This document shows, piece after piece, positions 5,417 to 33,661 of a stretch of DNA of 58,737 nt. The first letter of the stretch is position 1. Each line of letters opens with the position of its first letter. The notes under the pieces are model-generated. The model was not told the DNA's origin, searched no databases, and was given only the letters and a program-made list of their open reading frames with translations. The stretch is from IMG/VR virus record IMGVR_UViG_3300000968_000001, positions 1-58,737 of that record; one strand, 5' to 3'. The translations under genes were made by a program, and so were the position numbers. This DNA comes from a virus.

Positions 5417-5422
5417 ACACTT

Positions 5423-14346: not shown

Positions 14347-14426
14347 GCGTGTGTGCCTGAGTGGTCTAAAGGGTTCGATTGCAAATCGAATATTATTCGT
14401 GAGTTCAAATCTCTCCATGCGCTCCA
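14347..14426 (+). tRNA. tRNA-Cys (anticodon GCA) with encoded CCA
   Basis: Acceptor GCGTGTG/CATGCGC (two G-U pairs), D arm CCT-...-AGG with GG in the loop, anticodon arm TTCGA-TTGCAAA-TCGAA, T arm GTGAG-TTCAAAT-CTCTC (one T-T mismatch), unusual 8-nt variable region, T + CCA. Confidence 0.75.
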
Positions 14427-14697: not shown

Positions 14698-16638
14698 ATG
14701 TCAGAAATTTGCTACGATAAAATCCCTGCGGCTATTTACGCCGACAAAGAAAGAAACCAACGATTCTTAATGGATCGTGAAAGAGCCAAGTGGTCTGAGA
14801 CAGATGTTCTCGATAAAGTGGCTTTCCAAGGCCAAATCTCACCTACTACAAACCTAAACATCGTCAAGATGTCTAAGTCTATGGCTTGTCCAGTAGGGTT
14901 TAGTGAAAAGAACTACCAACTAGAGGAGTGCCAACCAGACAATTACGAAGTAGGAACACAAACAGGACGAACTAATTGCGGAGGTGACTCAGAATGCGCT
15001 ACGCAAGAAACCTTAGTTACAAAGAAAGATGGTTCATGTCGCCCTGAGATGTGCGAGATTCCATACGCTCAAGGACACCGCGTTATTGAGCCTTTTGATT
15101 GGAAAGGAGCATTTAAGTCTCAGACCATGTGCGCTGAAGAACTTTATAACCACGGAGGATCACAACACCTTTATGATTACAATGAGGCCGTAAAAGAGCA
15201 CTTCTCTGATTGGCTTACATATAACTATCAGATGAACCTCCTTAACGAGCTTGGGTTGCGTGCAGAATCAAACTCCTCGGAAGGTTGGTCAAATAACGGA
15301 TCAGTTGCATCTAAATACACTTGGCACGGAAAACCTAAAGGTTACCTGTCTATCTCACACCTTAAGCAGTTGCGTAAAGTACTTCATATCAGAGGTGGAC
15401 TAAATGAAGGAAAACTTCGCCTAGAAGGCCCGATGGAGGACTTTATTCGCGCTATCCAAGACTACGAATGCAATGTTCTCGGCAAGCAGTTCTGTGATGT
15501 TTCTTATAACCGTGTCCAATACGAAGATAAAGAAGGAATGCTTCGCGGTCGTGAATACATCGAGTACGAAGGGATTTGCTACTACCGTAATGAATATCCA
15601 CGTAAAGCAATCTGGATCCAGAAAGGTAAATCAGCTTCACTTAAGTATATCTATCCATATGTTGACTCAACAGAAGCGGCTGAAGTCGGATTAATGAAGG
15701 AGGATAACGATGAATACTACGGTGAGTATGTTTACTGTGATGGGTCGTATCACGACCTTATCACAATCTATGATTTCATTCACCCGATGTCATCTAAACG
15801 CTGGACTCTCGATAAACCTATTAACCCTGAGAGTGACAACACCTCAACAGGACTTGAGCTTCACGTAGCTAAAGAGTGGCAAATTCCTTGCAATATCAAT
15901 AAGGATAAGTGGTTCTACTACTCACGCCCTCGTATGAGACACCTCGTTGAATACCCAGAGCATCTAGGCTTCCACCTTGCACTATCACGTGATACAGGCG
16001 GCGGGGAAATTGTTGTTACCACCAAAACATCCAGAATTCCAACTGACAATACCAAGTGCGGAATTCCAACAGTGCCACCTAAGTATGATACATGCGCTGA
16101 TGATGGTTCATGCGCTGAGTGTGATGACACAACTACTTGTGAGGCAGTAACGGCGAGCATCGTTCCATGCCCTAATAAGGAGCTATACTATGAAGGAGTG
16201 TTTGCTGACGGTGACACGCAAGAAGCGGCATACCGCATTGAACTATCTGCACCAGCGTGTGAGGATGGAACAATCGACTACGCCTTCGTTGATGGTGATG
16301 CAGTATTCGGAACTAACTACGATGTAGCTAGTGGCCAAACTGGAACAATTAACGTTGTCGCGGGAGATGCTGAAATCGTAGTGCCATTCACCGTTCTAGG
16401 AGTTGATCCTGACGCTGACGGCGATGCAGATCCAGCAACTATCTCTAAAGTATCTGGAACACTCACTCTCACAGGAGCAACTGGAGGAGTAGAGCTTGCA
16501 ACAGATTGCGTAGAGTCCACCTTCTGCATTATCGATAACTCTAGCGAGTGCGGTAGTGAAGAGTGTGGCGCGGATGCTGATTGCCCTAACTGCACAGGAA
16601 CAGGAAGCGCAGTAGGAGGCGGAACAACAAATCCTTAA
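14698..16638 (+). CDS. Putative major capsid protein with a Cys/Asp-rich C-terminal extension
   Basis: A single gene bracketed by a strong promoter and terminator, downstream of portal and scaffold. About 26 Cys by hand count. No fold-level evidence. Confidence 0.5.
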   Translation: MSEICYDKIPAAIYADKERNQRFLMDRERAKWSETDVLDKVAFQGQISPTTNLNIVKMSKSMACPVGFSEKNYQLEECQPDNYEVGTQTGRTNCGGDSECATQETLVTKKDGSCRPEMCEIPYAQGHRVIEPFDWKGAFKSQTMCAEELYNHGGSQHLYDYNEAVKEHFSDWLTYNYQMNLLNELGLRAESNSSEGWSNNGSVASKYTWHGKPKGYLSISHLKQLRKVLHIRGGLNEGKLRLEGPMEDFIRAIQDYECNVLGKQFCDVSYNRVQYEDKEGMLRGREYIEYEGICYYRNEYPRKAIWIQKGKSASLKYIYPYVDSTEAAEVGLMKEDNDEYYGEYVYCDGSYHDLITIYDFIHPMSSKRWTLDKPINPESDNTSTGLELHVAKEWQIPCNINKDKWFYYSRPRMRHLVEYPEHLGFHLALSRDTGGGEIVVTTKTSRIPTDNTKCGIPTVPPKYDTCADDGSCAECDDTTTCEAVTASIVPCPNKELYYEGVFADGDTQEAAYRIELSAPACEDGTIDYAFVDGDAVFGTNYDVASGQTGTINVVAGDAEIVVPFTVLGVDPDADGDADPATISKVSGTLTLTGATGGVELATDCVESTFCIIDNSSECGSEECGADADCPNCTGTGSAVGGGTTNP

Positions 16639-16651
16639 TCCATAACAACTA

Positions 16652-16683
16652 AGAGCGGGGGTAACCCCTCCGCTCTTTCTTTA
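16652..16683 (+). terminator. Rho-independent terminator after the capsid-like gene
   Basis: agagcggggg-taa-cccctccgctct followed by ttctttaac. Confidence 0.6.
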
Positions 16684-16705
16684 ACCTTTTAAAATTATAT
16701 ATACG

Positions 16706-17956
16706 ATGGCTACTTTTGAATACTTCTTAGACGGATGCTTACCAGACTGTGATTCTGGGGTATTTATTTTCCAACTAGCAACACAGAGCAATATTAGTAA
16801 TTATCCTTCTGAGATAGACATGGTGGTGACTGCCACTGATGATATTATCGTAAACGGAAAGGCATTAAAGAGATACACCCTAAGCTTTGATGAAACACTA
16901 ATTTTCCCTTTAGGTCGCCTTAGTGTTTGCGACCTCAAACAAGATGAAGGAGGCTTTCATGGCTCGCCTTCATGCAAGATTTGCGCTACAAACTGCGAAC
17001 TTGAGGGTGATATAGCAGCGATAAACCAACTCCTTTTAGACAGTGGGATTATATCTGATACATTTATCTATATTGAGAACGCTGACGGGAGCATCACTTA
17101 CACAAATAGTGATGGGACTATTACGGGTATTATTCCAGCATCAGCAGGATTATCCGTTGATTCAGACGGTAATCTAGTTGATTCAGGCGGCACTATTATT
17201 GCAGCTTCTGGAGAGGAGGCCAATATAGCTACAACGATTGATACGGAAGGAAATGTGTCACTCTTGATTAACGGAGTTGAAGCTCATACAGTAACTCACT
17301 GCGAATTGACGGCAAAATGCTTATCTGATCAATCTTTCGCTGAAGACTTAGCTGAGACACTAGAGAAGCATATTGAGATTGAAGACCTTGGGACAACTGC
17401 TCCTGAAGGATCAACCTATGTTTCTGATGGGTCAGGCGGTTTAATCGCAGTGCAAAACGCAGTATATAATAGTCTACCTTCCACCAATCGAGGCAGTGTC
17501 ATTGTAAGCAACCATGATGGATGTATTCGATCATATTACTGGGATGGCAGTGCTTATATTGCAGTCCCTAATGATACATCCGAAGAGTTCGAGGGAGTGC
17601 TTATCTACAGTTCGTCTGGGTTACAAACCGAAACGGTAACCATCCCCACACACTCAGCCTACGCTCCAACTAAAGGGGTTCCAGTAGCGGCTATTGTGCA
17701 ACTAAGAGCCTATGTTAATACTAATGACGGGATTAGCAATGCCAACGCTTCAATCTACAGGACGGCTACAGGATTAAACTCAGGGGCGCGTGCCGCTACC
17801 GCGGTTGCTGATAACGGAAGGCAGTTTGATACTAACGAAGTACGTATCCCTCTAACATCAGCAGGGAACGTCATACTAACATCTACTACTGCGAGCCCTA
17901 TTGGTGGCGCAGGTCAAGCTGATACGGTCGCTTATCTAATCGGCTACAAGTACTAA
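16706..17956 (+). CDS. Tail fibre/spike protein, paralogue 1 (shared N-terminal anchor domain)
   Basis: The first ~100 aa are roughly 60% identical by eye to the N-terminus of 18428..21133, and the C-termini are unrelated. Confidence 0.55.
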   Translation: MATFEYFLDGCLPDCDSGVFIFQLATQSNISNYPSEIDMVVTATDDIIVNGKALKRYTLSFDETLIFPLGRLSVCDLKQDEGGFHGSPSCKICATNCELEGDIAAINQLLLDSGIISDTFIYIENADGSITYTNSDGTITGIIPASAGLSVDSDGNLVDSGGTIIAASGEEANIATTIDTEGNVSLLINGVEAHTVTHCELTAKCLSDQSFAEDLAETLEKHIEIEDLGTTAPEGSTYVSDGSGGLIAVQNAVYNSLPSTNRGSVIVSNHDGCIRSYYWDGSAYIAVPNDTSEEFEGVLIYSSSGLQTETVTIPTHSAYAPTKGVPVAAIVQLRAYVNTNDGISNANASIYRTATGLNSGARAATAVADNGRQFDTNEVRIPLTSAGNVILTSTTASPIGGAGQADTVAYLIGYKY

Positions 17957-17975
17957 CCCTTAACTAATTTAAAAT

Positions 17976-18419: not shown

Positions 18420-18427
18420 CTAAAAAC

Positions 18428-21133
18428 ATGGCCACATTTAAATATTTACTAGACGGGTGTTTACCAGATTGTGATTCTGGTGTATTCACATTTCAACTAC
18501 TTAGTCAATCAGGCATCACAGGATTCCCTACAGAGATTGATATGCAACTCGTATCTACGGGTGAGACATACGTAAACGGGAAGAAGGTAAAGGAATACAC
18601 CTTTGACTTCGACCTTTCGCTTATTGCGCCACTAGAACGACTTAACTTATGTGACCTAGAACAAGATCCAGATGGTCTCCACGGATTTCCTACATGCAAA
18701 GTATGCGCGTCAACGTGCGAACTTGAGGAGCGTGTAGAAATTCTCGAAGCAAAGGTTGACGAGAATACTCGTTATGACTTTAACTTCACTCGCAGTGGGG
18801 ACAATCTAGTATATACAGCAACGCCCAACGATGGAGGTGCACCTTATACTCAGACCATCCAAGATGTGTTTGTAGATACAGATACGCTCGATGTGTCTCA
18901 ATTTAGTGGAACTGTGAGCAATGGTATTGTTACTATTAACCATTCATCAGGCGGCAATAGTTCAAACATTCAATTCCCCCTCGGAGTATCAAGTGTAGCT
19001 ACTAACTCTAACCCAGATGGTTCAACAACTATTACTTATGTAGATGGAGAAGGCAATACACAAACAGCGGGTGTAATCCCAACAGGTAGTGAAAGCTCTG
19101 TTTTAACTACAACAAACGCTAATGGTTCAGTTACTTATACGCATGATGCAGGAAATGGGGACGCGCCAGTAAGTTGGACAGTGTTCCCGCCAACTATTGA
19201 CACCAACTGTTGCACAACAGATTTAAGACTTAATCCGACAGGAGGAGTAGCTGGAACGCCAGTATATGAGGCGGAGATTACGGATTTAATCAGCGGGGCT
19301 GCAAGCGTCATAGCTGCACCTGCGGGAGTTTCTAGTGATGCTAACAACTCACTCACAGTGGGAGCTGATGGATTACCTTATTACAACGATGTCGATATTG
19401 TTACTGAAGTGACTCAAAACGCCAGTGGTGCATGGGAGGTTACTGAGAATGGAGTCTTAGTAGAGACTATTACGGACACGACTATTGCAGACACTAATAC
19501 CAATGCTAGTATTGTTAATAACGCAGACGGCACGGTAACAATTACGAATGATGCAGGTCAAACTTGGACAAGCGGAGTTACTGCATCATCTGGATGTCCT
19601 GATACATTCGCATCTATTACAGATGAAGATGCTCGTAACGTATCAGCTTCGGGTTGCGGTGACGACATCACCCTCCACAGAACGCTTAACGTAGGGGATG
19701 AGCATACAAGCTCAACTGGAAATGGGGATATTAGCGTTGCATCATTGGACTCTAATCATAGCGCGAGCGGTGGGGTTGTAGGAGTAACTACAGATCACAA
19801 CACTCTAATCGCAAACTCATTAAGCTCAACAGCTACAGGAGCAGGATCTACAGTGGTTAGCTCATGGGAATCTACAGCATCTGGCGTAAACTCCTTTGTT
19901 GCATCATCAACTTTCAGCACGTCCGTGACAGGTAATTTCTCTACAGCTATCAACGCTGGCAGCGGGTTAAATGAAGGAGATTATTCATCGATTTACGGAT
20001 GGCGAGCATTCAACTATGGTGACGGATCATTCGTAAACGGAGGCAATAGATATGTAGGCACTGGATCTTCCGCTGAAAATAGGCTTAATGGTTCTTTTGT
20101 TTACGGAAGAGATGCTAAAAATTTGAATACTGGAGATTACACATTCACGCGGAATAATTTTCTATTCGGAGATAATTCTTTTGTAGATAACAATTTAAAT
20201 TCAGTCTGTTTTGGTGCTACAATTGAATCTGGAGGGAGTCATAATTTTGCATTTGGAAATAATTCAACAATAAGCTTAGCTAGCGGAACCACCTCATCAA
20301 CTGGGGCGACACTAACAGGTGCAAACCAAGCGATTGGGTCTCAAATAACTATCGAGATAGACACCCTTAATGACACTGAGCTTGACTCAAGAGCTGGGGA
20401 TGGGGGCTTAGGAAGATCGACAGGTCTTGGCTATGCTCATTTAATTGAGTCATCCCAAGCAACCTCAATAGGTTACAGAGGCCATGTTTTACCAGGTCAT
20501 AGAAACGCAATGGTCTTAAGTGGGAACAATCAGGCTTCATCGCCACCCACTACATCGACAGGTCTAGCCACCTTGACAGCACTATTTCCGGGAGGATATA
20601 CCTTCTGGACAAATAATGCTCAAACGGTAGGGGTGACACTTACTGGTTCTGGATGGGTATCAACATCTACTAGAGATTCTAAAAAGAACTTCGCAGATGT
20701 AGGAAGTGTGATTGAAGCGGTGGAGAACACTCTCCCTAAAGCGGAATCATGGCAGTATGACGCCGAACTCACTAAGGTGGTAGGGGTAGAAGAAGTGGAA
20801 TACGAATACACTGATATTGACGAATCCATTCAAAGGGAAATTGAAGAACTGGAATCAGAGAGTGCAGATACGAGCGAAAAGCGAAAAGAGTTATCTGAAA
20901 GACTCAAAATAACAAAGAAGGTTACAAGAAAGAAAAACATCATTTCTGAGGAGCAGCCAATATTTATTGGGTATATGGCTGAAGACTTCTCGAAACTAGG
21001 ATATGGATCATCTACGCAAGGCATCGAACCCTTGCAACTTGCAACCATAGCACTAGAATACGCAAGGGAGGTTAAATATATTAATGATGAATTAACATCT
21101 AGGATTGAAAAGCTTGAAAATACCATTAAGTAA
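18428..21133 (+). CDS. Tail fibre with a C-terminal intramolecular chaperone (peptidase S74-like) domain
   Basis: Shared N-terminal domain, Gly/Ser/Thr/Asn-rich repetitive body, ...STRDSKKNFADVG... and a C-terminal coiled coil (LQLATIALEYAREVKYINDELTSRIEKLENTIK) typical of auto-cleaving chaperone domains. Confidence 0.65.
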   Translation: MATFKYLLDGCLPDCDSGVFTFQLLSQSGITGFPTEIDMQLVSTGETYVNGKKVKEYTFDFDLSLIAPLERLNLCDLEQDPDGLHGFPTCKVCASTCELEERVEILEAKVDENTRYDFNFTRSGDNLVYTATPNDGGAPYTQTIQDVFVDTDTLDVSQFSGTVSNGIVTINHSSGGNSSNIQFPLGVSSVATNSNPDGSTTITYVDGEGNTQTAGVIPTGSESSVLTTTNANGSVTYTHDAGNGDAPVSWTVFPPTIDTNCCTTDLRLNPTGGVAGTPVYEAEITDLISGAASVIAAPAGVSSDANNSLTVGADGLPYYNDVDIVTEVTQNASGAWEVTENGVLVETITDTTIADTNTNASIVNNADGTVTITNDAGQTWTSGVTASSGCPDTFASITDEDARNVSASGCGDDITLHRTLNVGDEHTSSTGNGDISVASLDSNHSASGGVVGVTTDHNTLIANSLSSTATGAGSTVVSSWESTASGVNSFVASSTFSTSVTGNFSTAINAGSGLNEGDYSSIYGWRAFNYGDGSFVNGGNRYVGTGSSAENRLNGSFVYGRDAKNLNTGDYTFTRNNFLFGDNSFVDNNLNSVCFGATIESGGSHNFAFGNNSTISLASGTTSSTGATLTGANQAIGSQITIEIDTLNDTELDSRAGDGGLGRSTGLGYAHLIESSQATSIGYRGHVLPGHRNAMVLSGNNQASSPPTTSTGLATLTALFPGGYTFWTNNAQTVGVTLTGSGWVSTSTRDSKKNFADVGSVIEAVENTLPKAESWQYDAELTKVVGVEEVEYEYTDIDESIQREIEELESESADTSEKRKELSERLKITKKVTRKKNIISEEQPIFIGYMAEDFSKLGYGSSTQGIEPLQLATIALEYAREVKYINDELTSRIEKLENTIK

Positions 21134-21146
21134 TATTATCATTTTT

Positions 21147-22115
21147 ATGAGTCTTCTATGTCACAGTAAATCAAGCGCAGATAATAAACCGTATCGTTAT
21201 ATTATCTATGGTCAAAGTAACGCTTATGGGCCTAACCCTAACACTACCAACTTCCCACAAGCGGTTGACACAACTATAGACGCAAGAGTAAAAATATGGG
21301 CTAATGCTAAACACGGGGGATTAAATGCCTTCGGAAATCTTGACGGTAAAGGAGAATGGGAGTCGTGGGATATATCAGCATCGCCAAGGCAATACGGAAG
21401 TTATAGCGAAACGAATCAAAGATCAAATAACGCTCTTTACTCACTAGCGAAAAAAGTAGCCTCTGAAACAGGTAATGAAGTGGAGTGCATTGTTTGCGCT
21501 TTTGCAGGCTCTCCTATATCTAACTTGGTTGATATTAACGGATTCGGCTTCAGTTTGCTTAGTGATATACTTAGCAATGTAGAATGGGATTACGTAGATG
21601 GCATTATCTTTATTCAAGGGGAGTCAGATCAAAACACTCCGCTAGCTGATTATGAAAACTTATTCATAACAATGAGGGGAAATATGAGCAATCTTAACCC
21701 TATTAATGATAATACTCCAATGTATGTAGTGCAGTTGCAAGAAGTTGGAGCAGGAGGGGTTTCTGGTGATTTTGCGATGAACGAGTTTTTAGAAACTACA
21801 CCTAACAGGATTGATTATCCTTTCTATTACATAAAAACAGATGGGTTGGAGGCCAGAGATAGGTTACATTTCTCTAATAATGGGCTAAATGAGTTAGGGG
21901 GAGTTAGGTTATGGAATGAAATATCCAACAATAATATCTTCTTAGACAGAAACCTAACTCAAGTAAAAACCGACAACGGAAACGCGGTGGTTTTTTTTGG
22001 AGGGGACTCATTAGAATACTCGGACGACTTAGTGAGTTGGTTTACAATTTCTGGCGCGACTAGCCCATATACTGAACCTTTAGTCCAAAGAAGATTTTAC
22101 AGATCGACAAATTAA
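21147..22115 (+). CDS. SASA/SGNH-type carbohydrate O-acetylesterase-like protein
   Basis: YIIYGQSNAYG (GQSN block), IIFIQGESD (QGES block), DRLHFS (D..H). First ATG downstream of the fibre stop. Confidence 0.6.
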   Translation: MSLLCHSKSSADNKPYRYIIYGQSNAYGPNPNTTNFPQAVDTTIDARVKIWANAKHGGLNAFGNLDGKGEWESWDISASPRQYGSYSETNQRSNNALYSLAKKVASETGNEVECIVCAFAGSPISNLVDINGFGFSLLSDILSNVEWDYVDGIIFIQGESDQNTPLADYENLFITMRGNMSNLNPINDNTPMYVVQLQEVGAGGVSGDFAMNEFLETTPNRIDYPFYYIKTDGLEARDRLHFSNNGLNELGGVRLWNEISNNNIFLDRNLTQVKTDNGNAVVFFGGDSLEYSDDLVSWFTISGATSPYTEPLVQRRFYRSTN

Positions 22116-22116
22116 C

Positions 22117-23628: not shown

Positions 23629-23630
23629 TT

Positions 23631-25628
23631 ATGATCAAAATATGTTCAAAGACAGTGGATGAAATCTTAACATGTATATGTGATGGAGAAATATCTACAT
23701 ACGCGCAGCTTGAGGCAATCCTTCAAGCGTCCCCGCAAATCCCAGCGACAAAGAAAGAGGATATACTAGAGCAATTCTTTAAGCATAAGCTTGATGGATG
23801 TGACCTCCCCCTTGAAACAGAGGTGGAAGATTGTGATGGCAATATCACTACTGAAGAAGCTCAAGCGGTTGCCGTCAAAGGCATTGTCCGAACTAAGTCA
23901 TGCGACCCTTCTATTGATATAGAGAAAACAGGATGGGTATGCAGAAATGGAACTAAGCAGAATCTAGTATGCACCTTCACGGATGGAGTTAAAACTAACG
24001 AAGAGTGGATTGACTCTGGCATAGGATGCGATGAAGAGTTCCCTACGGATGTTGAAATATTTTATAAGAAGCGTTGTGACCTAACAACCAATACAATTTG
24101 GGAGCAACCTACATTCTACGCTCCCACTGATTCAGAAGATCCAACTACTACACAAGAAGTAGCAATGGGGATTGAATACGATACAGGTATATCTTGTGAG
24201 TCACTAATTCAAGATGTTAAAGCGGTTGATTGTGATGGTAATGACTTATTAATTAGAGCTGTTCCAGTAGTGACCCAAGGCACGGGAAGTGTTAAGGAGT
24301 GTAACTCGGATGCGCTACTAGATGTAGAGGTCAAGAAAGCTCAAATACTCAATGATATTCTGGAGTCGTTAAATGAAGACGATACGGATGATGATCTTCG
24401 CCGCGACTTTGAACTTACTAACTGTAGAGTAGTTGGTATTGACGGAAATCAGATTGATGGCTGGACGGTCTGGAACGTAGAGGTCAAAGATGAATTCGCT
24501 AATGTAGTTGAGGAAAGGCAAGTAGTTAAACTTAATGGTGTTGAGAATCCATTGCCAAGAGGTGCGACTGTCACCTGTATTGAAGAAAATAACTCTCAGA
24601 CTGAATGCCGTAAATCGCAAGAGGTGACTTTTGCTTTTGACAACACAGGGTTCTCAAAAGACGCAACCTTAGAGATAGGACTAGAATTATCGGATGGGCA
24701 ATACGCAACATTCATACAACCTCCACAAGCTAGTTTCACAGCGCAGACGACTCAATGGGTTACGGAAATCCAGTCCATTTTTGCAAACTTGGGAATAGTA
24801 GGATTCGTTGAGTCAAGGTTCATCAATAATAGTGATCCATCAGACACTTCAGGAAACACAGCTAGCGGGAACCCCAGCGGCCTTAATGGGGTTCCTAGCG
24901 CAAAGATTGGACAACTATTAGATGCGGGAGGGATCATCGCTCGCTATGTGAATGTTCAATCTTGCCCAGATCAACCAGCTATCGTCAGTGTGGAATTACT
25001 CTCAGTAAACGGAGTTCCTAGATCCACACCTAGATTCGCAACAGCAGTTGGTCCTCTATTAGGAGATGTCAATAGATACCAAGTATGCACTAGTTGCGGA
25101 GAAGAGGATGTGTGGTATATTTACGATGACACTTTAGCAGATAGCGATAAGAGATTAGCAACGCCTAGTGAGATACCTAACTGTTGGTGGTCTTGTTCAG
25201 AGCCTATACCTTCGCCGCCTAAACCTAACTGCTCAACAGTTAAAGATGAAGGATGCGATAGTGCCAACGACACAGAGGTGGTGAGGTTAACAACCTTCTG
25301 CTCTGGGACTCCTCCAATAGTAGAATTCTACGAAGAGCTTCCCGATGGATCATTACAGGAACACACCCTTATAGGTCAGTTCGTGGATTGTGAAGATGGA
25401 ACAGTTGTCGCAGATCAAGCTTCTGAAGAAAGAGTAGAGACTGCAACATTTATTGATTGCTATACAGATGGGGCAGGTAATTACAAAAAAGGGATTAGGG
25501 TATTAGATGTAACTAATCCTGTAGCCCCTTTCGTAATTGGCTCTTTCGAGTTAGACCGAATTACACCGCTAGACACTTCTGTTTGGACGGTGGAGGAAGA
25601 TAAATGTAACTGCGGATGCGGATGTTAA
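23631..25628 (+). CDS. Cysteine-rich virion protein (665 aa, ends ...DKCNCGCGC)
   Basis: About 30 Cys by hand count; located in the structural module. Confidence 0.5.
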   Translation: MIKICSKTVDEILTCICDGEISTYAQLEAILQASPQIPATKKEDILEQFFKHKLDGCDLPLETEVEDCDGNITTEEAQAVAVKGIVRTKSCDPSIDIEKTGWVCRNGTKQNLVCTFTDGVKTNEEWIDSGIGCDEEFPTDVEIFYKKRCDLTTNTIWEQPTFYAPTDSEDPTTTQEVAMGIEYDTGISCESLIQDVKAVDCDGNDLLIRAVPVVTQGTGSVKECNSDALLDVEVKKAQILNDILESLNEDDTDDDLRRDFELTNCRVVGIDGNQIDGWTVWNVEVKDEFANVVEERQVVKLNGVENPLPRGATVTCIEENNSQTECRKSQEVTFAFDNTGFSKDATLEIGLELSDGQYATFIQPPQASFTAQTTQWVTEIQSIFANLGIVGFVESRFINNSDPSDTSGNTASGNPSGLNGVPSAKIGQLLDAGGIIARYVNVQSCPDQPAIVSVELLSVNGVPRSTPRFATAVGPLLGDVNRYQVCTSCGEEDVWYIYDDTLADSDKRLATPSEIPNCWWSCSEPIPSPPKPNCSTVKDEGCDSANDTEVVRLTTFCSGTPPIVEFYEELPDGSLQEHTLIGQFVDCEDGTVVADQASEERVETATFIDCYTDGAGNYKKGIRVLDVTNPVAPFVIGSFELDRITPLDTSVWTVEEDKCNCGCGC

Positions 25629-25629
25629 T

Positions 25630-26976: not shown

Positions 26977-26980
26977 TATT

Positions 26981-27160
26981 ATGCCTAAATGCCCAATAGA
27001 CGGATGTAAAAAAACCTGCTCCTGCTCATGCAGAAAAGGGCGCGAGTGTGGGCTATTAAAGACGAAGTTAAACACTGAGAAAGTAATAGATAAAAAAGTA
27101 ATAGATAAAAAAATAATCTACTCCCCTAAGAATGGAGTGGTTCGACTTAAAAGAAAATAA
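26981..27160 (+). CDS. Small Cys-rich ORF (59 aa, MPKCPIDGCKKTCSCSCRKGRECG...)
   Basis: ATG 5 nt after the upstream stop; contains an in-frame 15-nt tandem duplication; just below the track cutoff. Confidence 0.3.
   Translation: MPKCPIDGCKKTCSCSCRKGRECGLLKTKLNTEKVIDKKVIDKKIIYSPKNGVVRLKRK
27081..27110 (+). repeat. Tandem duplication 2 x 15 nt (AAGTAATAGATAAAA), with a degenerate third unit
   Basis: Read directly from the sequence; encodes KVIDK-KVIDK in the small ORF frame. Confidence 0.85.
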
Positions 27161-27161
27161 T

Positions 27162-28127
27162 ATGAGTGAAACAGATTGCGGATGTTCAAAAGGGTATGCT
27201 AGTGCCAGTAATTCTAGCGCAACGAGTAATCCTACCAATAGCGTTGCGACTGGTAGCGTGGCAACAAATACCGTCAGCCCTGCATCAAATGTTGTGGTTA
27301 CTCCTCCAAGTGTTGTAGAGGAGTCAGTTGTTGAGAAGACTATTTATGCTACGAGTCCATCAGTTCCTACAGCAGATGCGGCAGTTAAGGTGACTACGCC
27401 ACCGATTCAATTAAAAGTATCGGATATTAATGGGTTTGGATATGACTTTAAAGTTGACCAAGTTGTCACTCAAGAAGTGAAGTCGTGCGGCATTAATCGT
27501 AAATGCACTCCCGCTATTGATTACGTCCCAGATTGGGCGCAGACGACCTTTTGTGCTGATGAGCTATCATTCATCGGTTATGATTCAAGCGGTGTTGTTG
27601 CTAAATTCTGTGGTGATGGAAAATACCTTAGCCACGTTGGAGATGGGGTCTTTGGATTAGTAGATGAGATTCCTCTTAAGGCTGAGTGCTTGTGGCACAA
27701 CACTACTACACTGAATGGAGGCGCGGCTATTGGTGATCCATTATGCTTCCCACATATAGCGATTACGGATGCAGAAGGAAACTTATGGAGTCAAAAACCG
27801 AAGCAAGGTCAGCAATCTATCTTAGTTGCTAATGGGGAAACAGGAGAGTGGTGTCAGCAGGATATTCGTGATGGAGGCTCATATGAGCAAGGCGCGATAG
27901 ATCAGTTTGAGGGAGGTATCGAGCTTGCAGGGTTTGAAGCTTCAGACTGCTTAGATGACGGATCATACCGTAAGCTAGGGACATTCAAGACAGACCTAGA
28001 GCAATTCCTCATGATTGGCACAAAAGTCCCATGTGACTTATACTCCACGGATTGTGAGCAAGGGTATAAATACGTAATGAACCCAATTAGTTTGGAGGAT
28101 CTGAAAGCTATGTTAGATGCGATGTAA
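27162..28127 (+). CDS. Cysteine-rich virion protein (starts MSETDCGCSKG)
   Basis: ORF 27132..28127; ATG 27162 follows the small ORF stop; about 12 Cys. Confidence 0.5.
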   Translation: MSETDCGCSKGYASASNSSATSNPTNSVATGSVATNTVSPASNVVVTPPSVVEESVVEKTIYATSPSVPTADAAVKVTTPPIQLKVSDINGFGYDFKVDQVVTQEVKSCGINRKCTPAIDYVPDWAQTTFCADELSFIGYDSSGVVAKFCGDGKYLSHVGDGVFGLVDEIPLKAECLWHNTTTLNGGAAIGDPLCFPHIAITDAEGNLWSQKPKQGQQSILVANGETGEWCQQDIRDGGSYEQGAIDQFEGGIELAGFEASDCLDDGSYRKLGTFKTDLEQFLMIGTKVPCDLYSTDCEQGYKYVMNPISLEDLKAMLDAM

Positions 28128-30055
28128 TGAGTAGTGCGCGTTCCATACTTGAGCTAGGCACTAGAGGTGTTGATATGCGAACTAATCCCTTTCAATTAGG
28201 GATTGGCAAGTTGGCATTCGCTCAGAATGCAGTCTTTGATGAATCAGAGGCGAGAACGCGCTTTGGATATAACTACCACAACTTAGGGTTATCAGGCAGA
28301 CTTCAAGATGCGATGGTAGTGAATCTAGGTAAAGGGATGTCTCGCGGCAAGTATGGTCATGATGTTGATGTATTGGTTATCGTTATTGATGGCAAAGCGT
28401 GGTTCCTGAGATCAGAAGTATTTTTTGAAGGCGACAAGAAGAGAGTTTCTTTCTGTTGCCCTCAAAGAATATGTGACCTCGAATGGGGGAGATGTGAGGA
28501 AGTCCGTATTAAACAGGTGGAGGACTACGTAGTATTCTACGGAAGGAATATTAAAACCTCATGGTGGAACGGAGAGGTGTGCGAAGTATCGCAAGGGATG
28601 GAAGACCGAGCTTGCTCTAATATAGATGAGCGATGTCATGAGCCAGAGAGTTTCTGTGATGAAGATATTAGAAACTGGATTCCTCATAATTTATGCAACG
28701 TAGCTTATGCTCACGGAAGAGCGCACGCACAGGTGGGGAATAACACAATTTACGTTGGCGACATGCTCCACAAGAGAGCTGAAGACAGAACATCGGACGT
28801 ATTAAAATTTAATGAGCAAGCACATGATTCGTATGGAGATCCTATTGGGGTTCCTAGTTCCAGTGGTTGTTATGTAACTTTAGAGAATTTCCCCGCGATG
28901 GGGACAGTTTATGGCGAGGGAGATATAGTGGGATACACAACGTGCGGGGGAATAGTTACCCACCCAACTAATATCTTTCCTCGCCAATCACGCTATACAG
29001 CACAGGGTGAGAATATCACAAAAGGATGGAAGTATCAGAAAATGGTTACTCGCATCGTGAATGCCGTCACCGCTGTTGGTTATAATGCTGTCACCGTTAC
29101 ACCTAGAGATCACTTCTTTGCTAGTGACTATGGCGTGCATTTCCTAACGCAAGTCACAGGCGAGGGGAGCTTTAACGATGAGACTACTAAGACGCTCTCA
29201 CAGGATATAGAGCCTCTTTATCGTATTGACTCACCAGCCCTCACGTATGGACGATCAACAGGGCATTGGTTGAATGGGAGCAGATTCTTCGTGACAGTAG
29301 GAATGGTTGAATCCGAGTGGAGCAACCTGCCAGTAGCTAAAGGATATGCTAGCATGAACCAAGCCTTAACCTACACAGAGGATAGAACGCCTTTACCCGT
29401 ATGGGAGGGGCTACACACGGTTGATGAGGATATGGTAATTCATAAGTTCCTCGCATCGACTAAGGTTGATTACCGTGGAGCATACGGATTCTTAGCTAGT
29501 TCTAGTGATGGATCACTTTACTTTGCTGAAATGTGTGAGGACTTAACTCATGACGTTAGAGATGACGAAGAGATCCCGATTGAATGGGAAATCGAAACAG
29601 GGAAGACTATTGCAAATAGGTTCATGAAGACCTCTATCGTTAATGATGGCACATTGCGTTATATTACGGATGATGCCGACCTAGACCTATCTATAATGAC
29701 GCGAACGTCTCATTCATGCAACTGGAAGAACTGGCGCACAATGGATGTATGCGCTGATAAGATAGATGAAAGAGGCAGAGTTATCTCTGTAGCTACATTA
29801 GGTCAACCTCCAAAGGATTACCGTGAGAACGCATGGGCACAGTATCGCATTCAAGGGCGCGGGTATGCTGAGATTGAGAGCTTCCAAGTGTGGTATGAAG
29901 ATGGAACACAGATAAAATCTAAAAATTATTGTAAGTGCGCGGGCGAGCGAGTCCGTGACTATAGGAATTGTCTTGGCATAAACGACAAGGCATTGTATAA
30001 GAAACCAAGCGAGTGTAAAGATCCACTAAAATTAGAAGAACCCTGCACCTGCTAA
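28127..30055 (+). CDS. Cysteine-rich virion protein (642 aa, ends ...EEPCTC)
   Basis: About 20 Cys including CCPQRIC..RCEE; TAATG overlap with the upstream gene. Confidence 0.5.
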   Translation: MSSARSILELGTRGVDMRTNPFQLGIGKLAFAQNAVFDESEARTRFGYNYHNLGLSGRLQDAMVVNLGKGMSRGKYGHDVDVLVIVIDGKAWFLRSEVFFEGDKKRVSFCCPQRICDLEWGRCEEVRIKQVEDYVVFYGRNIKTSWWNGEVCEVSQGMEDRACSNIDERCHEPESFCDEDIRNWIPHNLCNVAYAHGRAHAQVGNNTIYVGDMLHKRAEDRTSDVLKFNEQAHDSYGDPIGVPSSSGCYVTLENFPAMGTVYGEGDIVGYTTCGGIVTHPTNIFPRQSRYTAQGENITKGWKYQKMVTRIVNAVTAVGYNAVTVTPRDHFFASDYGVHFLTQVTGEGSFNDETTKTLSQDIEPLYRIDSPALTYGRSTGHWLNGSRFFVTVGMVESEWSNLPVAKGYASMNQALTYTEDRTPLPVWEGLHTVDEDMVIHKFLASTKVDYRGAYGFLASSSDGSLYFAEMCEDLTHDVRDDEEIPIEWEIETGKTIANRFMKTSIVNDGTLRYITDDADLDLSIMTRTSHSCNWKNWRTMDVCADKIDERGRVISVATLGQPPKDYRENAWAQYRIQGRGYAEIESFQVWYEDGTQIKSKNYCKCAGERVRDYRNCLGINDKALYKKPSECKDPLKLEEPCTC

Positions 30056-30094
30056 AAACTATTTAACGCACGTCGTGATGATGTCCGTAATAAA

Positions 30095-31138
30095 ATGACA
30101 ACTACATATAATCCAACTACCTTTGGAAAGTTACTCTCTTGGATAGCTAAAGAGAACGTAACTGGTCTAAACTTGGAAGATGACAGAGAAGAGTTAGTAG
30201 AGATCGGAAACTTAATTCGTGAGTTCTGGTATAACCAGTATCACAACATATCCCTCTTTGATAACTACATGACCTGTCACAAGGTAGAGTGCTACCCTCT
30301 TGACTGTGGCGACCCTACGAAATGTTGCCACAATCAGTATTGGGGGATTACCGCCCCTGCTGATTTAGCGGGGATAGAGGAGGCTTGGTATAACAAGAAG
30401 CCTCTTTATACTCGATCCCGATGGTGGGAAGGAAAGGAAGGTCTTGTCTCACAAGGGTATGGAGACATGCAAATTGTTCCGATGGATCAAGAGTCGCCAT
30501 TGCGTCACCCTCTCAAATCATGCTCTAAGCTAACGATCCACACTCAGAAGAGATGCGATGACGGGAAAGACTTCGTTATCGAAGGGACGATCTTAACAGC
30601 TAGAGGGGAAGTAGAAGAAGTTGAGGATTATGAGATTAATGATGTCTTAGTTGGCGGCAAGAAGATTGAAACACCTGTTCAGTTCATGAATGTCACGAGC
30701 ATTATTATGCCAGAAGACCTAGAGGGTTATGTGCGTATCTTAGATGAAGATGGAAAGCTCCTAGTCAAGATTGACAGAGGTAACTATATCCCACGTCACA
30801 GACGCTATAAGATCACGGTTGATGGATGCAGTTGCGGTGATGACTGCAAGCCTGTTGGTCACGTAGCGGTCAAAGGCACAAGACAGTTTAGAGATTTATA
30901 TGACGATAACGACATTGTTGAGATTGGCTCACGCAGAATCATTCAACACCTAGCACGCATGGTTGTTAAGGAAGACTCTGATGATGATAAGGAACAAGCG
31001 ATTGCTAACCTAAACAGATCGAGAGCCTTAGATGAAATGCTAGGATTAGTGGAGCGATACCAAGCACAGCAAGATCAAGACCGCCCTAGACGATACAACA
31101 GAAGAAGAGATTACCACACAAAGATATGGAGACGATAA
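30095..31138 (+). CDS. Cysteine-rich virion protein (347 aa)
   Basis: CHKVECYPLDCGDPTKCCHNQ and DGCSCGDDCKP clusters; basic C-terminus. Confidence 0.5.
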   Translation: MTTTYNPTTFGKLLSWIAKENVTGLNLEDDREELVEIGNLIREFWYNQYHNISLFDNYMTCHKVECYPLDCGDPTKCCHNQYWGITAPADLAGIEEAWYNKKPLYTRSRWWEGKEGLVSQGYGDMQIVPMDQESPLRHPLKSCSKLTIHTQKRCDDGKDFVIEGTILTARGEVEEVEDYEINDVLVGGKKIETPVQFMNVTSIIMPEDLEGYVRILDEDGKLLVKIDRGNYIPRHRRYKITVDGCSCGDDCKPVGHVAVKGTRQFRDLYDDNDIVEIGSRRIIQHLARMVVKEDSDDDKEQAIANLNRSRALDEMLGLVERYQAQQDQDRPRRYNRRRDYHTKIWRR

Positions 31139-33655: not shown

Positions 33656-33661
33656 AACATC

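What the first reader, a model, noticed from the sequence alone, without database searches (positions are those of the whole stretch)
14698..31138. Exceptionally cysteine-rich virion proteins, suggesting a disulfide-stitched particle
My hand counts (each may be off by one or two) are as follows. The capsid-like protein has about 26 Cys in 646 aa, the 665-aa protein about 30, the 642-aa protein about 20, the 331-aa protein about 12 and the 347-aa protein about 10. The shared fibre N-domain has 6 conserved Cys. That is roughly 3-4.5% Cys, often in CxxC, CxC or CC clusters such as DTCADDGSCAECDDTTTC, SECGSEECGADADCPNC and CCPQRIC. In contrast, TerL and the portal are near 1%, and I noticed no Cys in the scaffold-like protein or the 1787-aa internal protein. 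Enrichment confined to a subset of virion proteins, alongside an Erv1-like oxidase in the same late region, suggests programmed oxidative folding or cross-linking rather than compositional drift.
Basis: partly seen in the sequence, partly recalled or inferred. Interest (0 to 1): 0.8.

Follow-up and report, generated by a model that had tools for sequence, protein, structure and literature searches.

The report
Phage with own disulfide oxidase
An uncultured bacteriophage has outer-shell and tail proteins packed with conserved cysteines, internal proteins with none, and a sulfhydryl-oxidase gene inside its head-assembly operon, so it probably makes its own disulfide bonds as giant viruses do, something not yet described for phages.

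Summary
Exact counts match every hand count: 26, 30, 20, 12 and 10 Cys. Cysteine is very unevenly spread over the late proteins (chi-square p = 7e-23). The capsid-like protein has 4.0% Cys, against a published median of 0.2-0.5% for phage capsid proteins.

The cysteines are under selection. 81% are invariant among capsid homologues, against 41.5% of all residues, with synonymous codon turnover. Their neighbours are polar and acidic rather than hydrophobic.

The gene at 7423-8124 is a real Erv/ALR-fold protein. It scores above the Pfam cutoff, matches the PDB at profile level (ASFV pB119L, E 6e-10), gives an AlphaFold model of pLDDT 92.7 and has an invariant GCxxC.

New here: this Erv gene sits between the terminase-like and portal-like genes in every relative recovered, about a dozen marine and other metagenomic phages. 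In all of them the scaffold-like protein has no cysteine. The giant internal proteins also have none: 2,382 aa here and at least 2,973 aa in a distant relative. No Erv was found in 50,697 GenBank phage records.

The best reading is phage-programmed oxidative folding or cross-linking of the exposed virion proteins. The disulfides themselves, FAD binding and the capsid fold remain unproven. Interest is high, and this is a new variant of a known viral strategy.

The parts
5402..7420 (+). Terminase-large-subunit-like protein (672 aa, 9 Cys, 1.34%)
   Evidence: It has no Pfam, PHROGs or PDB match. The label comes from its position and from motifs conserved in the 7-sequence alignment A5: IGSQNxSKS (Walker-A-like), IxDEVNEI (Walker-B-like) and AFCDPxFGGKD (nuclease-like). 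Orthologues at 26-33% identity lie directly upstream of the Erv gene in all relatives.
7423..8124 (+). Erv/ALR-family sulfhydryl-oxidase-like protein (233 aa). An N-terminal domain of about 110 aa has an unknown fold, and the C-terminal Erv domain carries CxxC at residues 177-180 and HNEVN at 209-213.
   Evidence: Pfam PF04777, E 8e-10, above the cutoff. CxxC and WLWxxHNxVN align to the QSOX1 active site. The family profile matches ASFV pB119L at E 5.7e-10 over the whole Erv domain. AlphaFold pLDDT is 92.7. Foldseek matches Erv2p, pB119L and AtErv1 with TM 0.64-0.70. GCxxC is invariant in 40 family members. The ATG lies 3 nt after the TerL-like stop codon.
8748..11051 (+). Portal-like protein (767 aa, 6 Cys, 0.78%)
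   Evidence: Labelled from position and size only. Orthologues at 20-50% identity lie directly downstream of the Erv gene in relatives and have 0.26-0.88% Cys. No database match.
11276..11539 (+). Small conserved head-module protein (87 aa, 0 Cys)
   Evidence: An orthologue of 78-98 aa lies between the portal-like and scaffold-like genes in all relatives.
11542..12999 (+). Scaffold-like protein (485 aa, highly acidic, 0 Cys)
   Evidence: Composition is E 14.6%, K 10.3%, S 11.3%. All eight orthologues (425-508 aa, 3,828 aa in total) have zero Cys.
14347..14426 (+). tRNA-Cys (anticodon GCA), about 270 nt upstream of the Cys-rich capsid-like gene
   Evidence: ARAGORN and the Rfam tRNA model at 52.5 bits. 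It is absent from the relatives' loci, so it is a recent gain in this phage.
14698..16638 (+). Major-capsid-like protein (646 aa, 26 Cys, 4.0%) with a C-terminal Calx-beta-like domain (about residues 480-613) and a Cys-rich tail
   Evidence: Counts. 21 of 26 Cys are invariant in homologues at 68% and 51% identity. C114, C145, C466 and C472 are invariant in 8 orthologues at about 20% identity. The Calx-beta domain matches Na/Ca-exchanger CBD structures at E 1.6e-9. The capsid label is inferred from the portal, scaffold, capsid gene order. AlphaFold failed.
16706..17956 (+). Fibre/spike-like protein (416 aa, 9 Cys) with the shared 100-aa N-domain carrying 6 Cys
   Evidence: The N-domain is 62% identical to that of 18428-21133. 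All six Cys are invariant in both paralogues and in the L002 orthologue.
18428..21133 (+). Fibre/spike-like protein (901 aa, 11 Cys) with the same 6-Cys N-domain
23631..25628 (+). Cys-richest virion-region protein (665 aa, 30 Cys, 4.5%), ending in KCNCGCGC
   Evidence: No Pfam, PHROGs or PDB match.
27132..28127 (+). Cys-rich virion-region protein (331 aa, 12 Cys)
28127..30055 (+). Conserved virion-module protein (642 aa, 20 Cys) with a Cys-rich insertion at about residues 110-190 (9 Cys) and a Cys-rich C-terminal tail
   Evidence: The orthologue in IMGVR_UViG_3300006056_000046 (608 aa, 8 Cys, 23% identity) lacks the insertion and shares no Cys positions.
30095..31138 (+). Conserved virion-module protein (347 aa, 10 Cys)
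   Evidence: The orthologue (333 aa, 10 Cys, 27% identity) shares C61, C78, C245 and C247.
31551..32783 (+). Virion-region protein (410 aa, 11 Cys)
   Evidence: Its distant orthologue (362 aa, 28% identity) has zero Cys, so the cysteines were gained in this clade.
32786..39945 (+). Three consecutive cysteine-free proteins (289, 306 and 1787 aa; 2,382 aa in total), taken to be internal or ejected virion proteins
   Evidence: Counts. Composition is rich in S, A, E, Q and N, with no transmembrane segments. At the same place in the distant relative, proteins of 362, 377 and at least 2,234 aa also have zero Cys. The internal/ejection role is inferred from composition, size and position.

Best explanation
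The window is a complete, temperate, tailed-phage-like genome of about 58.7 kb from an uncultured lineage. That lineage carries an Erv/ALR-family FAD sulfhydryl oxidase as a fixed gene of its head-assembly operon (TerL-like, Erv, portal-like, small protein, scaffold-like, capsid-like).

Proposed mechanism:
1. The oxidase is made together with the packaging and head proteins.
2. It uses its CxxC/FAD centre and oxygen to put disulfide bonds into the capsid-like protein and the tail, fibre and adaptor proteins. This happens while they fold and assemble in the otherwise reducing bacterial cytoplasm.
3. Its novel N-terminal domain may dock it onto the substrate or the procapsid.
4. The disulfides staple exposed loops, inserted mini-domains and terminal tails, and may link subunits. 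The result is a hardened particle.
5. Proteins that must leave the shell (the scaffold) or be unfolded and ejected through the tail (the 289-, 306- and 1787-aa internal proteins) have been purged of cysteine, so they cannot be trapped by stray cross-links.

In the clade of this window the strategy has been pushed further. The capsid-like protein went from about 8-13 Cys to 23-28, Cys-rich insertions and tails were added, and this phage has picked up its own tRNA-Cys just upstream of the capsid-like gene.

Shown: the counts, the conservation, the Erv fold and motifs, the gene order, and the lineage-wide absence of cysteine from the scaffold-like and internal proteins.

Inferred: FAD and oxygen chemistry, the identity of the substrates, the existence and topology of the disulfides, the virion location of each protein, and the reason for the cysteine-free proteins.
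For: 1. Exact counts and strong heterogeneity: chi-square p = 7e-23, and 3.41% against 1.66% Cys (Fisher p = 5e-8).
2. A published baseline puts median Cys in phage capsid proteins at 0.21% (INPHARED) and 0.51% (gut phages), with 3 or more Cys already in the top quartile (bioRxiv 10.64898/2026.07.03.736451). This protein has 26.
3. Selection on the cysteines: 21 of 26 are invariant against 41.5% of all residues (Fisher p = 3.6e-5). 11 of the 21 invariant columns use both TGT and TGC. Four Cys are among only 27 invariant columns at about 20% identity. The six Cys of the fibre N-domain are invariant. Four Cys are shared by the 347-aa orthologues at 27% identity.
4. The neighbours of the cysteines are depleted in hydrophobic residues (32% against 37%, p = 0.01) and enriched in acidic ones (21.7% against 15.0%, p = 9e-6). 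That suggests exposed loops, where free thiols are disfavoured, rather than the buried isolated cysteines reported for gut-phage capsids.
5. CxxC pairs, typical of zinc sites, are rare in these proteins: 0 to 2 per protein.
6. The Erv assignment rests on Pfam above cutoff, a profile match to ASFV pB119L and AtErv1 over the full domain, an AlphaFold model at pLDDT 92.7, Foldseek TM 0.64-0.70, and GCxxC plus N210 invariant in 40 members.
7. Wherever flanks exist, the Erv gene lies between the TerL-like and portal-like genes, often with overlapping stop and start codons. The loci are L001, L003-L006, L008-L013, L015-L018 and L020-L024, from TARA ocean and JGI samples.
8. All eight scaffold-like orthologues have zero Cys (3,828 aa). 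The internal proteins have zero Cys in 2,382 aa here and in at least 2,973 aa in a relative whose capsid-like protein is only 20% identical.
9. tRNA-Cys(GCA) lies about 270 nt upstream of the capsid-like gene.
10. Precedent: NCLDVs and baculoviruses use Erv-family oxidases for virion morphogenesis (PMC3509050, PMC10598087, PMC11654684).
Against: - No disulfide has been observed or modelled. The only structure attempt on a Cys-rich protein failed (pLDDT 33), and the tools give no coordinates for measuring Cys-Cys distances.
- Parity is only weakly supportive.
- The helix-1 histidine of the usual Erv W-x3-H motif is not conserved in this family, so FAD binding is unproven.
- The window protein lacks the N-terminal CxxC found in about a third of family members. 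It has C16-x10-C27 instead.
- No thioredoxin-fold partner was found by Pfam in the proteins scanned (46 of the 70 ORFs tabulated).
- Relatives that carry the same Erv gene have capsid-like proteins with only 1.3-2.2% Cys. The oxidase therefore does not by itself predict extreme Cys content.
- None of the 20 Cys of the 642-aa protein is shared with its distant orthologue.
- The tRNA-Cys is absent from relatives.
- In oxic water disulfides could form without any enzyme after lysis.
- Low-complexity hydrophilic proteins are naturally poor in Cys, which explains part of the zero counts.
Confidence: 0.58

Rival explanations
1. The particle is disulfide-bonded, but the bonds form spontaneously in oxygenated water after lysis, or through host enzymes. 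The Erv protein does something else, such as oxidising a single assembly factor, acting on host proteins, producing H2O2, or working as a packaged enzyme at entry.
For: - Phage virions with disulfide networks are known, and no phage-encoded oxidase has been reported with them (Milano, PD491P1, tail tubes; PMC13576161).
- Relatives with the same Erv gene have only moderately Cys-rich capsid-like proteins.
- Family members come from oxic settings such as TARA ocean scaffolds.
Against: - The Erv gene is fixed inside the TerL-like/portal-like/scaffold-like/capsid-like operon in every relative and is often translationally coupled. That points to a morphogenetic role.
- A core of capsid-like cysteines (C114, C145, C466, C472) is conserved across exactly the set of phages that carry Erv.
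- The scaffold-like protein is cysteine-free in all of them. That makes most sense if oxidation happens while the scaffold is still inside, that is, before lysis.
Confidence: 0.2
2. Most of the cysteines bind metal (zinc, iron or iron-sulfur clusters), or are free thiols used for packing, not disulfides. The Erv gene is unrelated.
For: - Some clusters look like metal sites: C-x2-C-x3-C with a fourth Cys in the fibre N-domain, the C-terminal CNCGCGC, and the acidic CxxC-containing stretches.
- In gut-phage capsids the conserved cysteines are mostly buried and isolated.
- Several proteins have odd Cys counts.
Against: - CxxC pairs are rare: 0 to 2 per protein against 10 to 30 Cys.
- The spacing is irregular.
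- The neighbours are polar and acidic rather than hydrophobic.
- The highest densities lie in inserted loops and terminal tails, as in extracellular disulfide-rich domains.
- The matching purge of cysteine from proteins that exit or are ejected is not explained by metal binding.
Confidence: 0.12
3. The uneven cysteine content is a by-product of composition and ancestry, with no redox programme. Globular proteins carry cysteines and low-complexity ones do not.
For: - The cysteine-free proteins are hydrophilic, low-complexity and also poor in Trp and His.
- Many cysteines in the 642-aa and 410-aa proteins are not shared with distant orthologues.
Against: - Cys is the most conserved residue type, with synonymous turnover.
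- 4.0% Cys in a capsid-like protein is about 19 times the INPHARED median and about 8 times the gut-phage median.
- The chance of zero Cys in 1787 aa is 1.5e-12, and the C-terminal half or so of that protein looks globular.
- The zero-Cys state recurs in orthologues at about 20-25% identity.
Confidence: 0.05

Closest known systems
Cytoplasmic disulfide pathways of nucleocytoplasmic large DNA viruses: vaccinia E10R-A2.5L-G4L, ASFV pB119L, mimivirus R596
   Same: A virus-encoded Erv/ALR-fold protein with an active-site CxxC, expressed with late or morphogenesis genes, in a virus whose structural proteins carry many cysteines. ASFV pB119L is the best PDB match by profile (E 5.7e-10) and among the best by fold (TM 0.66-0.68). 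All named hits among the top 50 BFVD matches are sulfhydryl oxidases of large eukaryotic DNA viruses (NCLDVs and an ascovirus).
   Different: - The host is a bacterium. The genome encodes a peptidoglycan amidase, bacterial-type tRNAs, a tyrosine integrase, ERF and DnaB.
- The particle appears to be tailed and has no membrane.
- The oxidase has a novel N-terminal domain of about 110 aa.
- No thioredoxin- or glutaredoxin-like relay partner was found.
- Sequence identity to the known enzymes is only about 20%.
Baculovirus P33 (Ac92) sulfhydryl oxidase and the disulfide-cross-linked nucleocapsid
   Same: An Erv-type oxidase in a virus whose capsid is covalently cross-linked (PMC11654684, PMC10657434, listed).
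   Different: Different viral realm, a eukaryotic host, nuclear assembly and a different quaternary structure. No sequence-level relationship was tested here.
Phage virions stabilised by disulfides: Parabacteroides phage PD491P1, Agrobacterium phage Milano, siphovirus tail tubes, Q-beta capsid, SPP1 stopper
   Same: Disulfide bonds in phage structural proteins, extensive in PD491P1.
   Different: For those phages no phage-encoded oxidising machinery has been described; that paper says so explicitly. Here the disulfides are only inferred, but a dedicated oxidase gene is present and conserved. There is no sequence similarity to any GenBank phage.
[quoted passage not shown]
   Same: Conserved cysteines enriched in phage capsid proteins.
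   Different: The scale differs: a median of 0.5% there against 4.0% here. The environment differs too: those cysteines are buried, hydrophobic and isolated, and the authors argue against disulfides, whereas here the neighbours are polar and acidic and the cysteines sit in loops and tails. No oxidase is involved there.
Cysteine usage in viruses of hyperthermophilic archaea (intracellular disulfides).
   Same: Elevated cysteine content in viral proteins, read as evidence of intracellular disulfide bonding.
   Different: That system relies on the host's disulfide-rich cytoplasm and a protein disulfide oxidoreductase, not on a virus-encoded Erv. Nothing here suggests a thermophile.

Membership tests
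Erv/ALR sulfhydryl oxidase family (Pfam PF04777) | Sequence match to the family model above the curated threshold | tested here: met
   39.4 bits against a cutoff of 27.6, E 8e-10, but covering only model positions 38-91 of 93. A profile of 40 family members covers the whole Erv domain of pB119L (residues 6-100 of 106) at E 5.7e-10.
Erv/ALR sulfhydryl oxidase family (Pfam PF04777) | Helical-bundle Erv fold | tested here: met
   The AlphaFold model has pLDDT 92.7, with helices at 131-145, 153-167, 178-194, 198-215 and 223-230. Foldseek against the PDB finds Erv2p, ASFV pB119L and AtErv1, with probability 1.00 and target-normalised TM 0.61-0.70.
Erv/ALR sulfhydryl oxidase family (Pfam PF04777) | Active-site CxxC at the start of the third helix | tested here: met
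   C177-E-T-C180 lies at the N-terminus of helix 178-194. It aligns with the QSOX1 active-site CxxC, and G-C-x-x-C is invariant in 40 family members.
Erv/ALR sulfhydryl oxidase family (Pfam PF04777) | Flavin-contacting motifs: helix-1 W-x3-H and helix-4 H-N-x-V-N | tested here: inconclusive
   W-L-W-x2-H-N-E-V-N is present (H209, N210), and N210 is invariant. The helix-1 tryptophans (W134, W139) are conserved, but the histidine is replaced in this family.
Erv/ALR sulfhydryl oxidase family (Pfam PF04777) | Bound FAD and oxygen-dependent thiol oxidase activity | not testable with these tools
   This needs purified protein, a flavin absorbance spectrum, and a DTT or protein-thiol oxidation assay.
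Erv/ALR sulfhydryl oxidase family (Pfam PF04777) | A second 'shuttle' disulfide on a flexible arm. Present in Erv1, Erv2 and ALR but absent from some viral members. | tested here: inconclusive
   About a third of family members start with MACxxC. The window protein has C16-x10-C27 instead, shared with its two closest relatives.
Virus-encoded cytoplasmic disulfide-formation pathway (NCLDV type) | An oxidase expressed with morphogenesis genes and required for virion assembly | tested here: inconclusive
   Placement in the operon and translational coupling with the TerL-like and portal-like genes are conserved in all relatives. Whether the gene is required cannot be tested here.
Virus-encoded cytoplasmic disulfide-formation pathway (NCLDV type) | Thioredoxin- or glutaredoxin-fold relay proteins between the oxidase and its substrates | tested here: not met
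   No thioredoxin- or glutaredoxin-like Pfam domain was found in the proteins scanned (46 of the 70 ORFs tabulated). Divergent or host-supplied partners are not excluded.
Virus-encoded cytoplasmic disulfide-formation pathway (NCLDV type) | Structural proteins shown to contain disulfides | not testable with these tools
   There is only indirect evidence: conservation, local sequence context and the cysteine-free counterpart proteins.
Tailed phage (Caudoviricetes) head module with an HK97-fold capsid protein | Recognisable TerL, portal and HK97-fold capsid protein | tested here: inconclusive
   There are no matches in Pfam, PHROGs, PDB sequences or INPHARED. AlphaFold on the capsid-like protein failed. 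Support comes only from the gene order, the sizes, ATPase- and nuclease-like motifs in the TerL-like protein, and a helix predicted at residues 156-191 of that low-confidence model.
Calx-beta domain | Sequence match to Na/Ca-exchanger calcium-binding domains | tested here: met
   The profile of 8 capsid-like proteins matches NCX CBD structures at E 1.6e-9. This is the only part of the capsid-like model with pLDDT of about 60-86.

The most novel reading that the evidence does not exclude
A widespread, uncultured lineage of bacteriophages found in marine and other metagenomes has made an Erv-family flavin sulfhydryl oxidase a core head-morphogenesis gene. This would be the first phage counterpart of the cytoplasmic disulfide pathways of giant viruses and baculoviruses. 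Its proteome has split around that chemistry. Exposed shell and tail proteins accumulate selected cysteines, reaching 4-4.5% in this clade. Proteins that must exit or be ejected (the scaffold and internal proteins of more than 2 kb) are kept strictly free of cysteine. If so, oxidative virion maturation inside a reducing bacterial cytoplasm exists. The phage Erv family, whose nearest structural relatives are NCLDV enzymes, also bears on where the viral Erv genes came from.
Probability: 0.5. Interest if true: 0.85.

Novelty: new variant of a known kind. Interest (0 to 1): 0.74.

Why it matters
[quoted passage not shown] Consistent with that, tblastn with two canonical Erv cores and two members of this family found no true phage among 50,697 GenBank phage records.

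A phage-encoded oxidase fixed in the head operon would show that phages, like giant viruses, can override the reducing cytoplasm to build covalently hardened particles.

It would also give testable rules:
- cysteine-rich exposed parts;
- a cysteine-free scaffold and cysteine-free ejected proteins.

These rules can be checked by proteomics, redox gels and cryo-EM, and could be used to engineer tougher phage particles or capsid nanocontainers.

The Erv family is compact (about 230 aa, two domains, roughly 100 clusters at 50% identity). It is a new resource for making disulfide-bonded proteins in bacterial cytoplasm. It also adds a data point for the debate on the origin of the NCLDV Erv genes.

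Tried and rejected
- **Known-phage relatives.** Megablast and tblastn of the region and of the capsid-like, TerL-like and Erv proteins against GenBank phages found nothing.
- **Family libraries.** PHROGs and Pfam scans of the structural proteins, including all members of the TerL-like, portal-like and capsid-like alignments, gave no usable hit.
- **PDB sequence searches.** The TerL-like, portal-like and 665-aa proteins gave nothing.
- **Word-indexed homologue search.** It returned only the query itself for Erv, and two homologues for the capsid-like protein.
- **Related-locus scans.** Scans with the capsid-like and TerL-like proteins in viral, metagenome and genome collections found nothing. 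Alignments A2 and A3 were too divergent, or their candidates failed confirmation. A hand-made degenerate DNA pattern across WG-W, GCxxC and HNxVN solved this.
- **AlphaFold of the capsid-like protein.** With 3 sequences it gave pLDDT 33 and was unusable. The capsid fold and Cys-Cys distances could therefore not be assessed, and the tools return no coordinates in any case.
- **Chance or distant hits.** L007 (a Bacteroidota MAG) was a chance pattern match with no Erv. L014 and L019 carry only weak, differently placed Erv-like hits and were not counted.
- **Parity of Cys counts.** Considered as evidence for pairing and rejected as weak, because several proteins and one homologue have odd counts.
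- **tRNA-Cys as lineage-wide evidence.** Rejected, because it is absent from relatives.
- **The PD491P1 structure paper.** It is not held in the library.

Full report
**1. What the window is**

The first and last 49 nt are identical (1-49 = 58689-58737). The contig is therefore a complete, circularly assembled genome of about 58.7 kb.

It carries the following recognisable genes:
- a tyrosine integrase (46281-47477, minus strand);
- an ERF recombinase (52637-53224);
- a DnaB helicase (56493-57860);
- a Bro-N protein;
- an Amidase_3 peptidoglycan amidase (22613-23293);
- a SASA-type esterase (21105-22115);
- an HNH endonuclease;
- two tRNAs.

This is a temperate bacteriophage-like element. It has no detectable similarity to any of 50,697 GenBank phage records. 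Its large structural proteins hit nothing in Pfam or PHROGs.

**2. The observation**

Exact translation reproduces every hand count: 26 Cys in 646 aa, 30 in 665, 20 in 642, 12 in 331 and 10 in 347. The quoted motifs are present.

Two further proteins are also elevated: 410 aa with 11 Cys and 416 aa with 9. The TerL-like and portal-like proteins have 1.34% and 0.78% Cys.

Four proteins have no cysteine at all: the scaffold-like protein (485 aa) and three consecutive proteins of 289, 306 and 1787 aa.

Across the 26 late proteins the distribution is far from uniform (chi-square 166.5, 25 df, p = 7e-23). The seven Cys-rich proteins pooled have 3.41% Cys against 1.66% in the non-late proteins (Fisher p = 5e-8). 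Zero Cys in 1787 aa has p = 1.5e-12.

A 2026 preprint gives an outside baseline. The median Cys content of phage major capsid proteins is 0.21% (INPHARED) and 0.51% (gut phages), and 3 or more cysteines already falls in the top quartile (bioRxiv 10.64898/2026.07.03.736451). At 4.0%, this capsid-like protein is an extreme outlier.

**3. The cysteines are under selection**

The capsid-like protein has two close homologues, at 68% and 51% identity. 21 of its 26 Cys are invariant across the three. Cys is the most conserved residue type: 81% invariant against 41.5% overall (Fisher p = 3.6e-5). 11 of the 21 invariant Cys columns use both TGT and TGC, so the conservation acts at the protein level.

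In an eight-member alignment reaching about 20% identity, four cysteines (C114, C145, C466, C472) are among only 27 invariant columns. C119 and C398 are present in 7 of 8.

The six Cys of the 100-aa N-domain shared by the two fibre-like proteins are invariant in both paralogues and in an orthologue at 37% identity.

The 347-aa protein shares four Cys with an orthologue at 27% identity.

Residues within three positions of a cysteine are depleted in hydrophobics (32% against 37%, p = 0.01) and enriched in acidics (21.7% against 15.0%, p = 9e-6). This is the opposite of the buried, hydrophobic, isolated cysteines reported for gut-phage capsids. It fits exposed loops, where cysteines are usually paired or bound to metal. 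That last point is established knowledge (Marino and Gladyshev 2010, as cited in that preprint).

CxxC pairs, the usual signature of zinc sites, are rare: 0 to 2 per protein.

**4. The oxidase**

The 233-aa product of 7423-8124 starts 3 nt after the TerL-like stop codon.
- Pfam PF04777 is hit above threshold.
- phmmer aligns its GCETC...WLWETHNEVN to the active site of QSOX1.
- An exhaustive HMMER search found a family of about 100 clusters of proteins of 210-260 aa sharing both domains.
- In 40 of them G-C-x-x-C and N210 are invariant.
- The family profile matches complete Erv domains in the PDB. The best are ASFV pB119L (E 5.7e-10) and Arabidopsis Erv1.
- AlphaFold with this alignment gives pLDDT 92.7.
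- Foldseek places the C-terminal domain with Erv2p, pB119L and AtErv1 at TM 0.61-0.70.
- The N-terminal domain of about 110 aa has no structural match.
- In BFVD, every named hit in the top 50 is a sulfhydryl oxidase of a large eukaryotic DNA virus (NCLDVs and an ascovirus), and no named hit is a phage.

Caveats:
- The helix-1 histidine of the usual W-x3-H motif is not conserved.
- The window protein lacks the N-terminal MACxxC seen in about a third of members, which is a plausible shuttle disulfide. It has C16-x10-C27 instead.
- FAD binding cannot be tested here.

**5. The new comparative result**

A degenerate DNA pattern spanning WG-W, GCxxC and HNxVN recovered family members with their flanks from IMG/VR, JGI and TARA metagenomes and from one MAG.

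Every locus with a strong family hit has the same order wherever the flanks exist. That order is TerL-like (about 640-675 aa), Erv (214-261 aa), portal-like (755-798 aa), a protein of about 80-98 aa, scaffold-like (425-508 aa) and capsid-like (581-607 aa where complete). The loci are L001, L003-L006, L008-L013, L015-L018 and L020-L024. Stop and start codons often overlap. Protein identities to the window are only 20-33%, so this is an old, conserved arrangement.

All eight scaffold-like orthologues have zero Cys (3,828 aa in total). The portal-like proteins have 0.26-0.88% Cys. The capsid-like proteins have 8-13 Cys (1.3-2.2%), which is well above phage norms but below the 23-28 Cys of the window clade.

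I walked along the 58.5-kb relative IMGVR_UViG_3300006056_000046. It has orthologues of the 642-aa and 347-aa proteins, several other proteins at 3-4% Cys, and then three consecutive proteins of 362, 377 and at least 2,234 aa with no cysteine at all. The division into cysteine-rich and cysteine-free virion-module proteins is therefore a property of the lineage.

The window clade has added cysteines through inserted loops and terminal tails:
- residues of about 110-190 of the 642-aa protein (9 Cys), absent from the orthologue;
- the capsid-like C-terminal tail;
- the C-terminal ends KCNCGCGC and EEPCTC.

**6. Mechanism**

The best-supported reading is that the Erv protein, made together with the head proteins, introduces disulfides into the capsid-like and tail-associated proteins during assembly in the cytoplasm. 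This would parallel pB119L, E10R, R596 and P33 in large eukaryotic viruses (PMC3509050, PMC10598087, PMC11654684).

On this reading, the proteins that must leave the procapsid (the scaffold) or be unfolded and ejected (the internal proteins) are kept cysteine-free to avoid being trapped.

The capsid-like C-terminal Calx-beta domain (E 1.6e-9 to Na/Ca-exchanger domains) and the acidic Cys-rich linkers suggest an exposed decoration that may bind calcium.

A tRNA-Cys(GCA) lies about 270 nt upstream of the capsid-like gene. That fits the demand for Cys codons, but it belongs to a window-specific tRNA/HNH cassette absent from relatives.

None of the following is shown: FAD chemistry, the substrates, the existence or topology of disulfides, or the location of each protein in the virion.

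**7. Rivals**

- Disulfides may form spontaneously after lysis while Erv serves another role. The operon placement, the co-conserved cysteine core and the cysteine-free scaffold argue against this, but it is not excluded (0.2).
- Metal binding or free thiols may account for some clusters, notably the fibre N-domain and the CNCGCGC tail. It fits the overall pattern poorly (0.12).
- Pure compositional drift is contradicted by the conservation data (0.05).

**8. Comparison and novelty**

Disulfide-stabilised phage particles are known: Q-beta, Milano, tail tubes and, extensively, PD491P1.

The finding is therefore a new variant of a known viral strategy. It appears in a new host domain, with a new two-domain Erv subfamily and an unusually clean proteome-level signature.

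**9. Limits**

- The terminase, portal and capsid labels are inferred from gene order, sizes and motifs.
- The host is unknown. Only 4 of 40 genes have a Shine-Dalgarno-like motif, which hints at a Bacteroidota-like host. One relative is a 55.7-kb contig binned with a Rubritalea MAG, which is weak evidence.

Noticed in passing
window 13733-14426: A cassette of about 1.7 kb lies between the scaffold-like and capsid-like genes and is absent from relatives. It holds tRNA-Met(CAT) at 13733-13805, an HNH_3 endonuclease ORF at 13869-14339 and tRNA-Cys(GCA) at 14347-14426. At 13815-13855 there is a remnant about 70% identical to the 5' half of the tRNA-Cys, anticodon loop included. Its 5' GCGCATG is the perfect complement of the 3' acceptor strand CATGCGC of the intact tRNA, whereas the intact tRNA's own 5' strand pairs with two G-U wobbles. 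This looks like the footprint of an HNH-element insertion that split the tRNA-Cys gene and restored it.
   Followed up: partly
window 13561-13625 (+): An Rfam DUF3800-VIII RNA match at 42.0 bits (gathering score 40.2), just upstream of the tRNA cassette. It is only just above threshold, and its function here is unknown.
   Followed up: no
window 4054-4087, 14435-14465, 43862-43905, 55369-55409: A motif of about 30 nt (CATTAAACTGATTGTGGCTACAT...) occurs four times, twice in each orientation, in intergenic regions at operon boundaries. One copy lies just upstream of the capsid-like gene and one beside the divergent region at 43.8 kb. It is probably a shared promoter or operator element.
   Followed up: no
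window 1-49 and 58689-58737: An exact 49-nt terminal direct repeat. The contig is a complete, circularly assembled genome with 58,688 unique bases.
   Followed up: yes
window, 40 gene starts: Only 4 of 40 genes have a Shine-Dalgarno-like motif upstream. The upstream regions are A/T-rich, as in Bacteroidota-type translation initiation. The only taxonomic label among relatives is a 55.7-kb contig binned in an uncultured Rubritalea (Verrucomicrobiota) MAG (L008). The host remains unknown.
   Followed up: partly
Erv family P0004-P0103; window 7423-7750: The phage Erv family has a conserved N-terminal domain of about 110 aa with no structural match. Conserved features include P33, W38, N84 and W87. 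About a third of members begin with MACxxC, a candidate shuttle disulfide. The window protein and its two closest relatives have C16-x10-C27 instead.
   Followed up: partly
window 5402-7420, 8748-11051, 14698-16638 and their orthologues in L001-L026: The terminase-like, portal-like and capsid-like proteins of this whole lineage match nothing in Pfam, PHROGs, PDB sequences or GenBank phages, even at relaxed thresholds. The lineage appears to be unrepresented among cultured or deposited phages.
   Followed up: partly
window 21105-23293: A SASA-type carbohydrate esterase (E 2e-12) and an Amidase_3 peptidoglycan amidase (E 2.5e-8) lie among the fibre-like genes. They suggest a receptor-modifying tail enzyme and the endolysin.
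   Followed up: no
window 56023-56248: Three copies of a 29-nt repeat (AAGGGCTATCAAAGCCCTCCCTAAGGGGT, 72-100% identical) lie inside ORF 55844-56404, upstream of the DnaB-like helicase gene. They may be origin iterons.
   Followed up: no
window 28127-30055, residues about 110-190: A Cys-dense insertion (9 Cys in about 80 residues) is absent from the distant orthologue. It looks like a recently acquired disulfide-rich or metal-binding mini-domain.
   Followed up: partly
GenBank phage collection, BTJB01000001.1: The only Erv hit in the 'phages' collection is 'Mollyvirus Mo1-1', a 620-kb giant-virus record filed among the phages.
   Followed up: no
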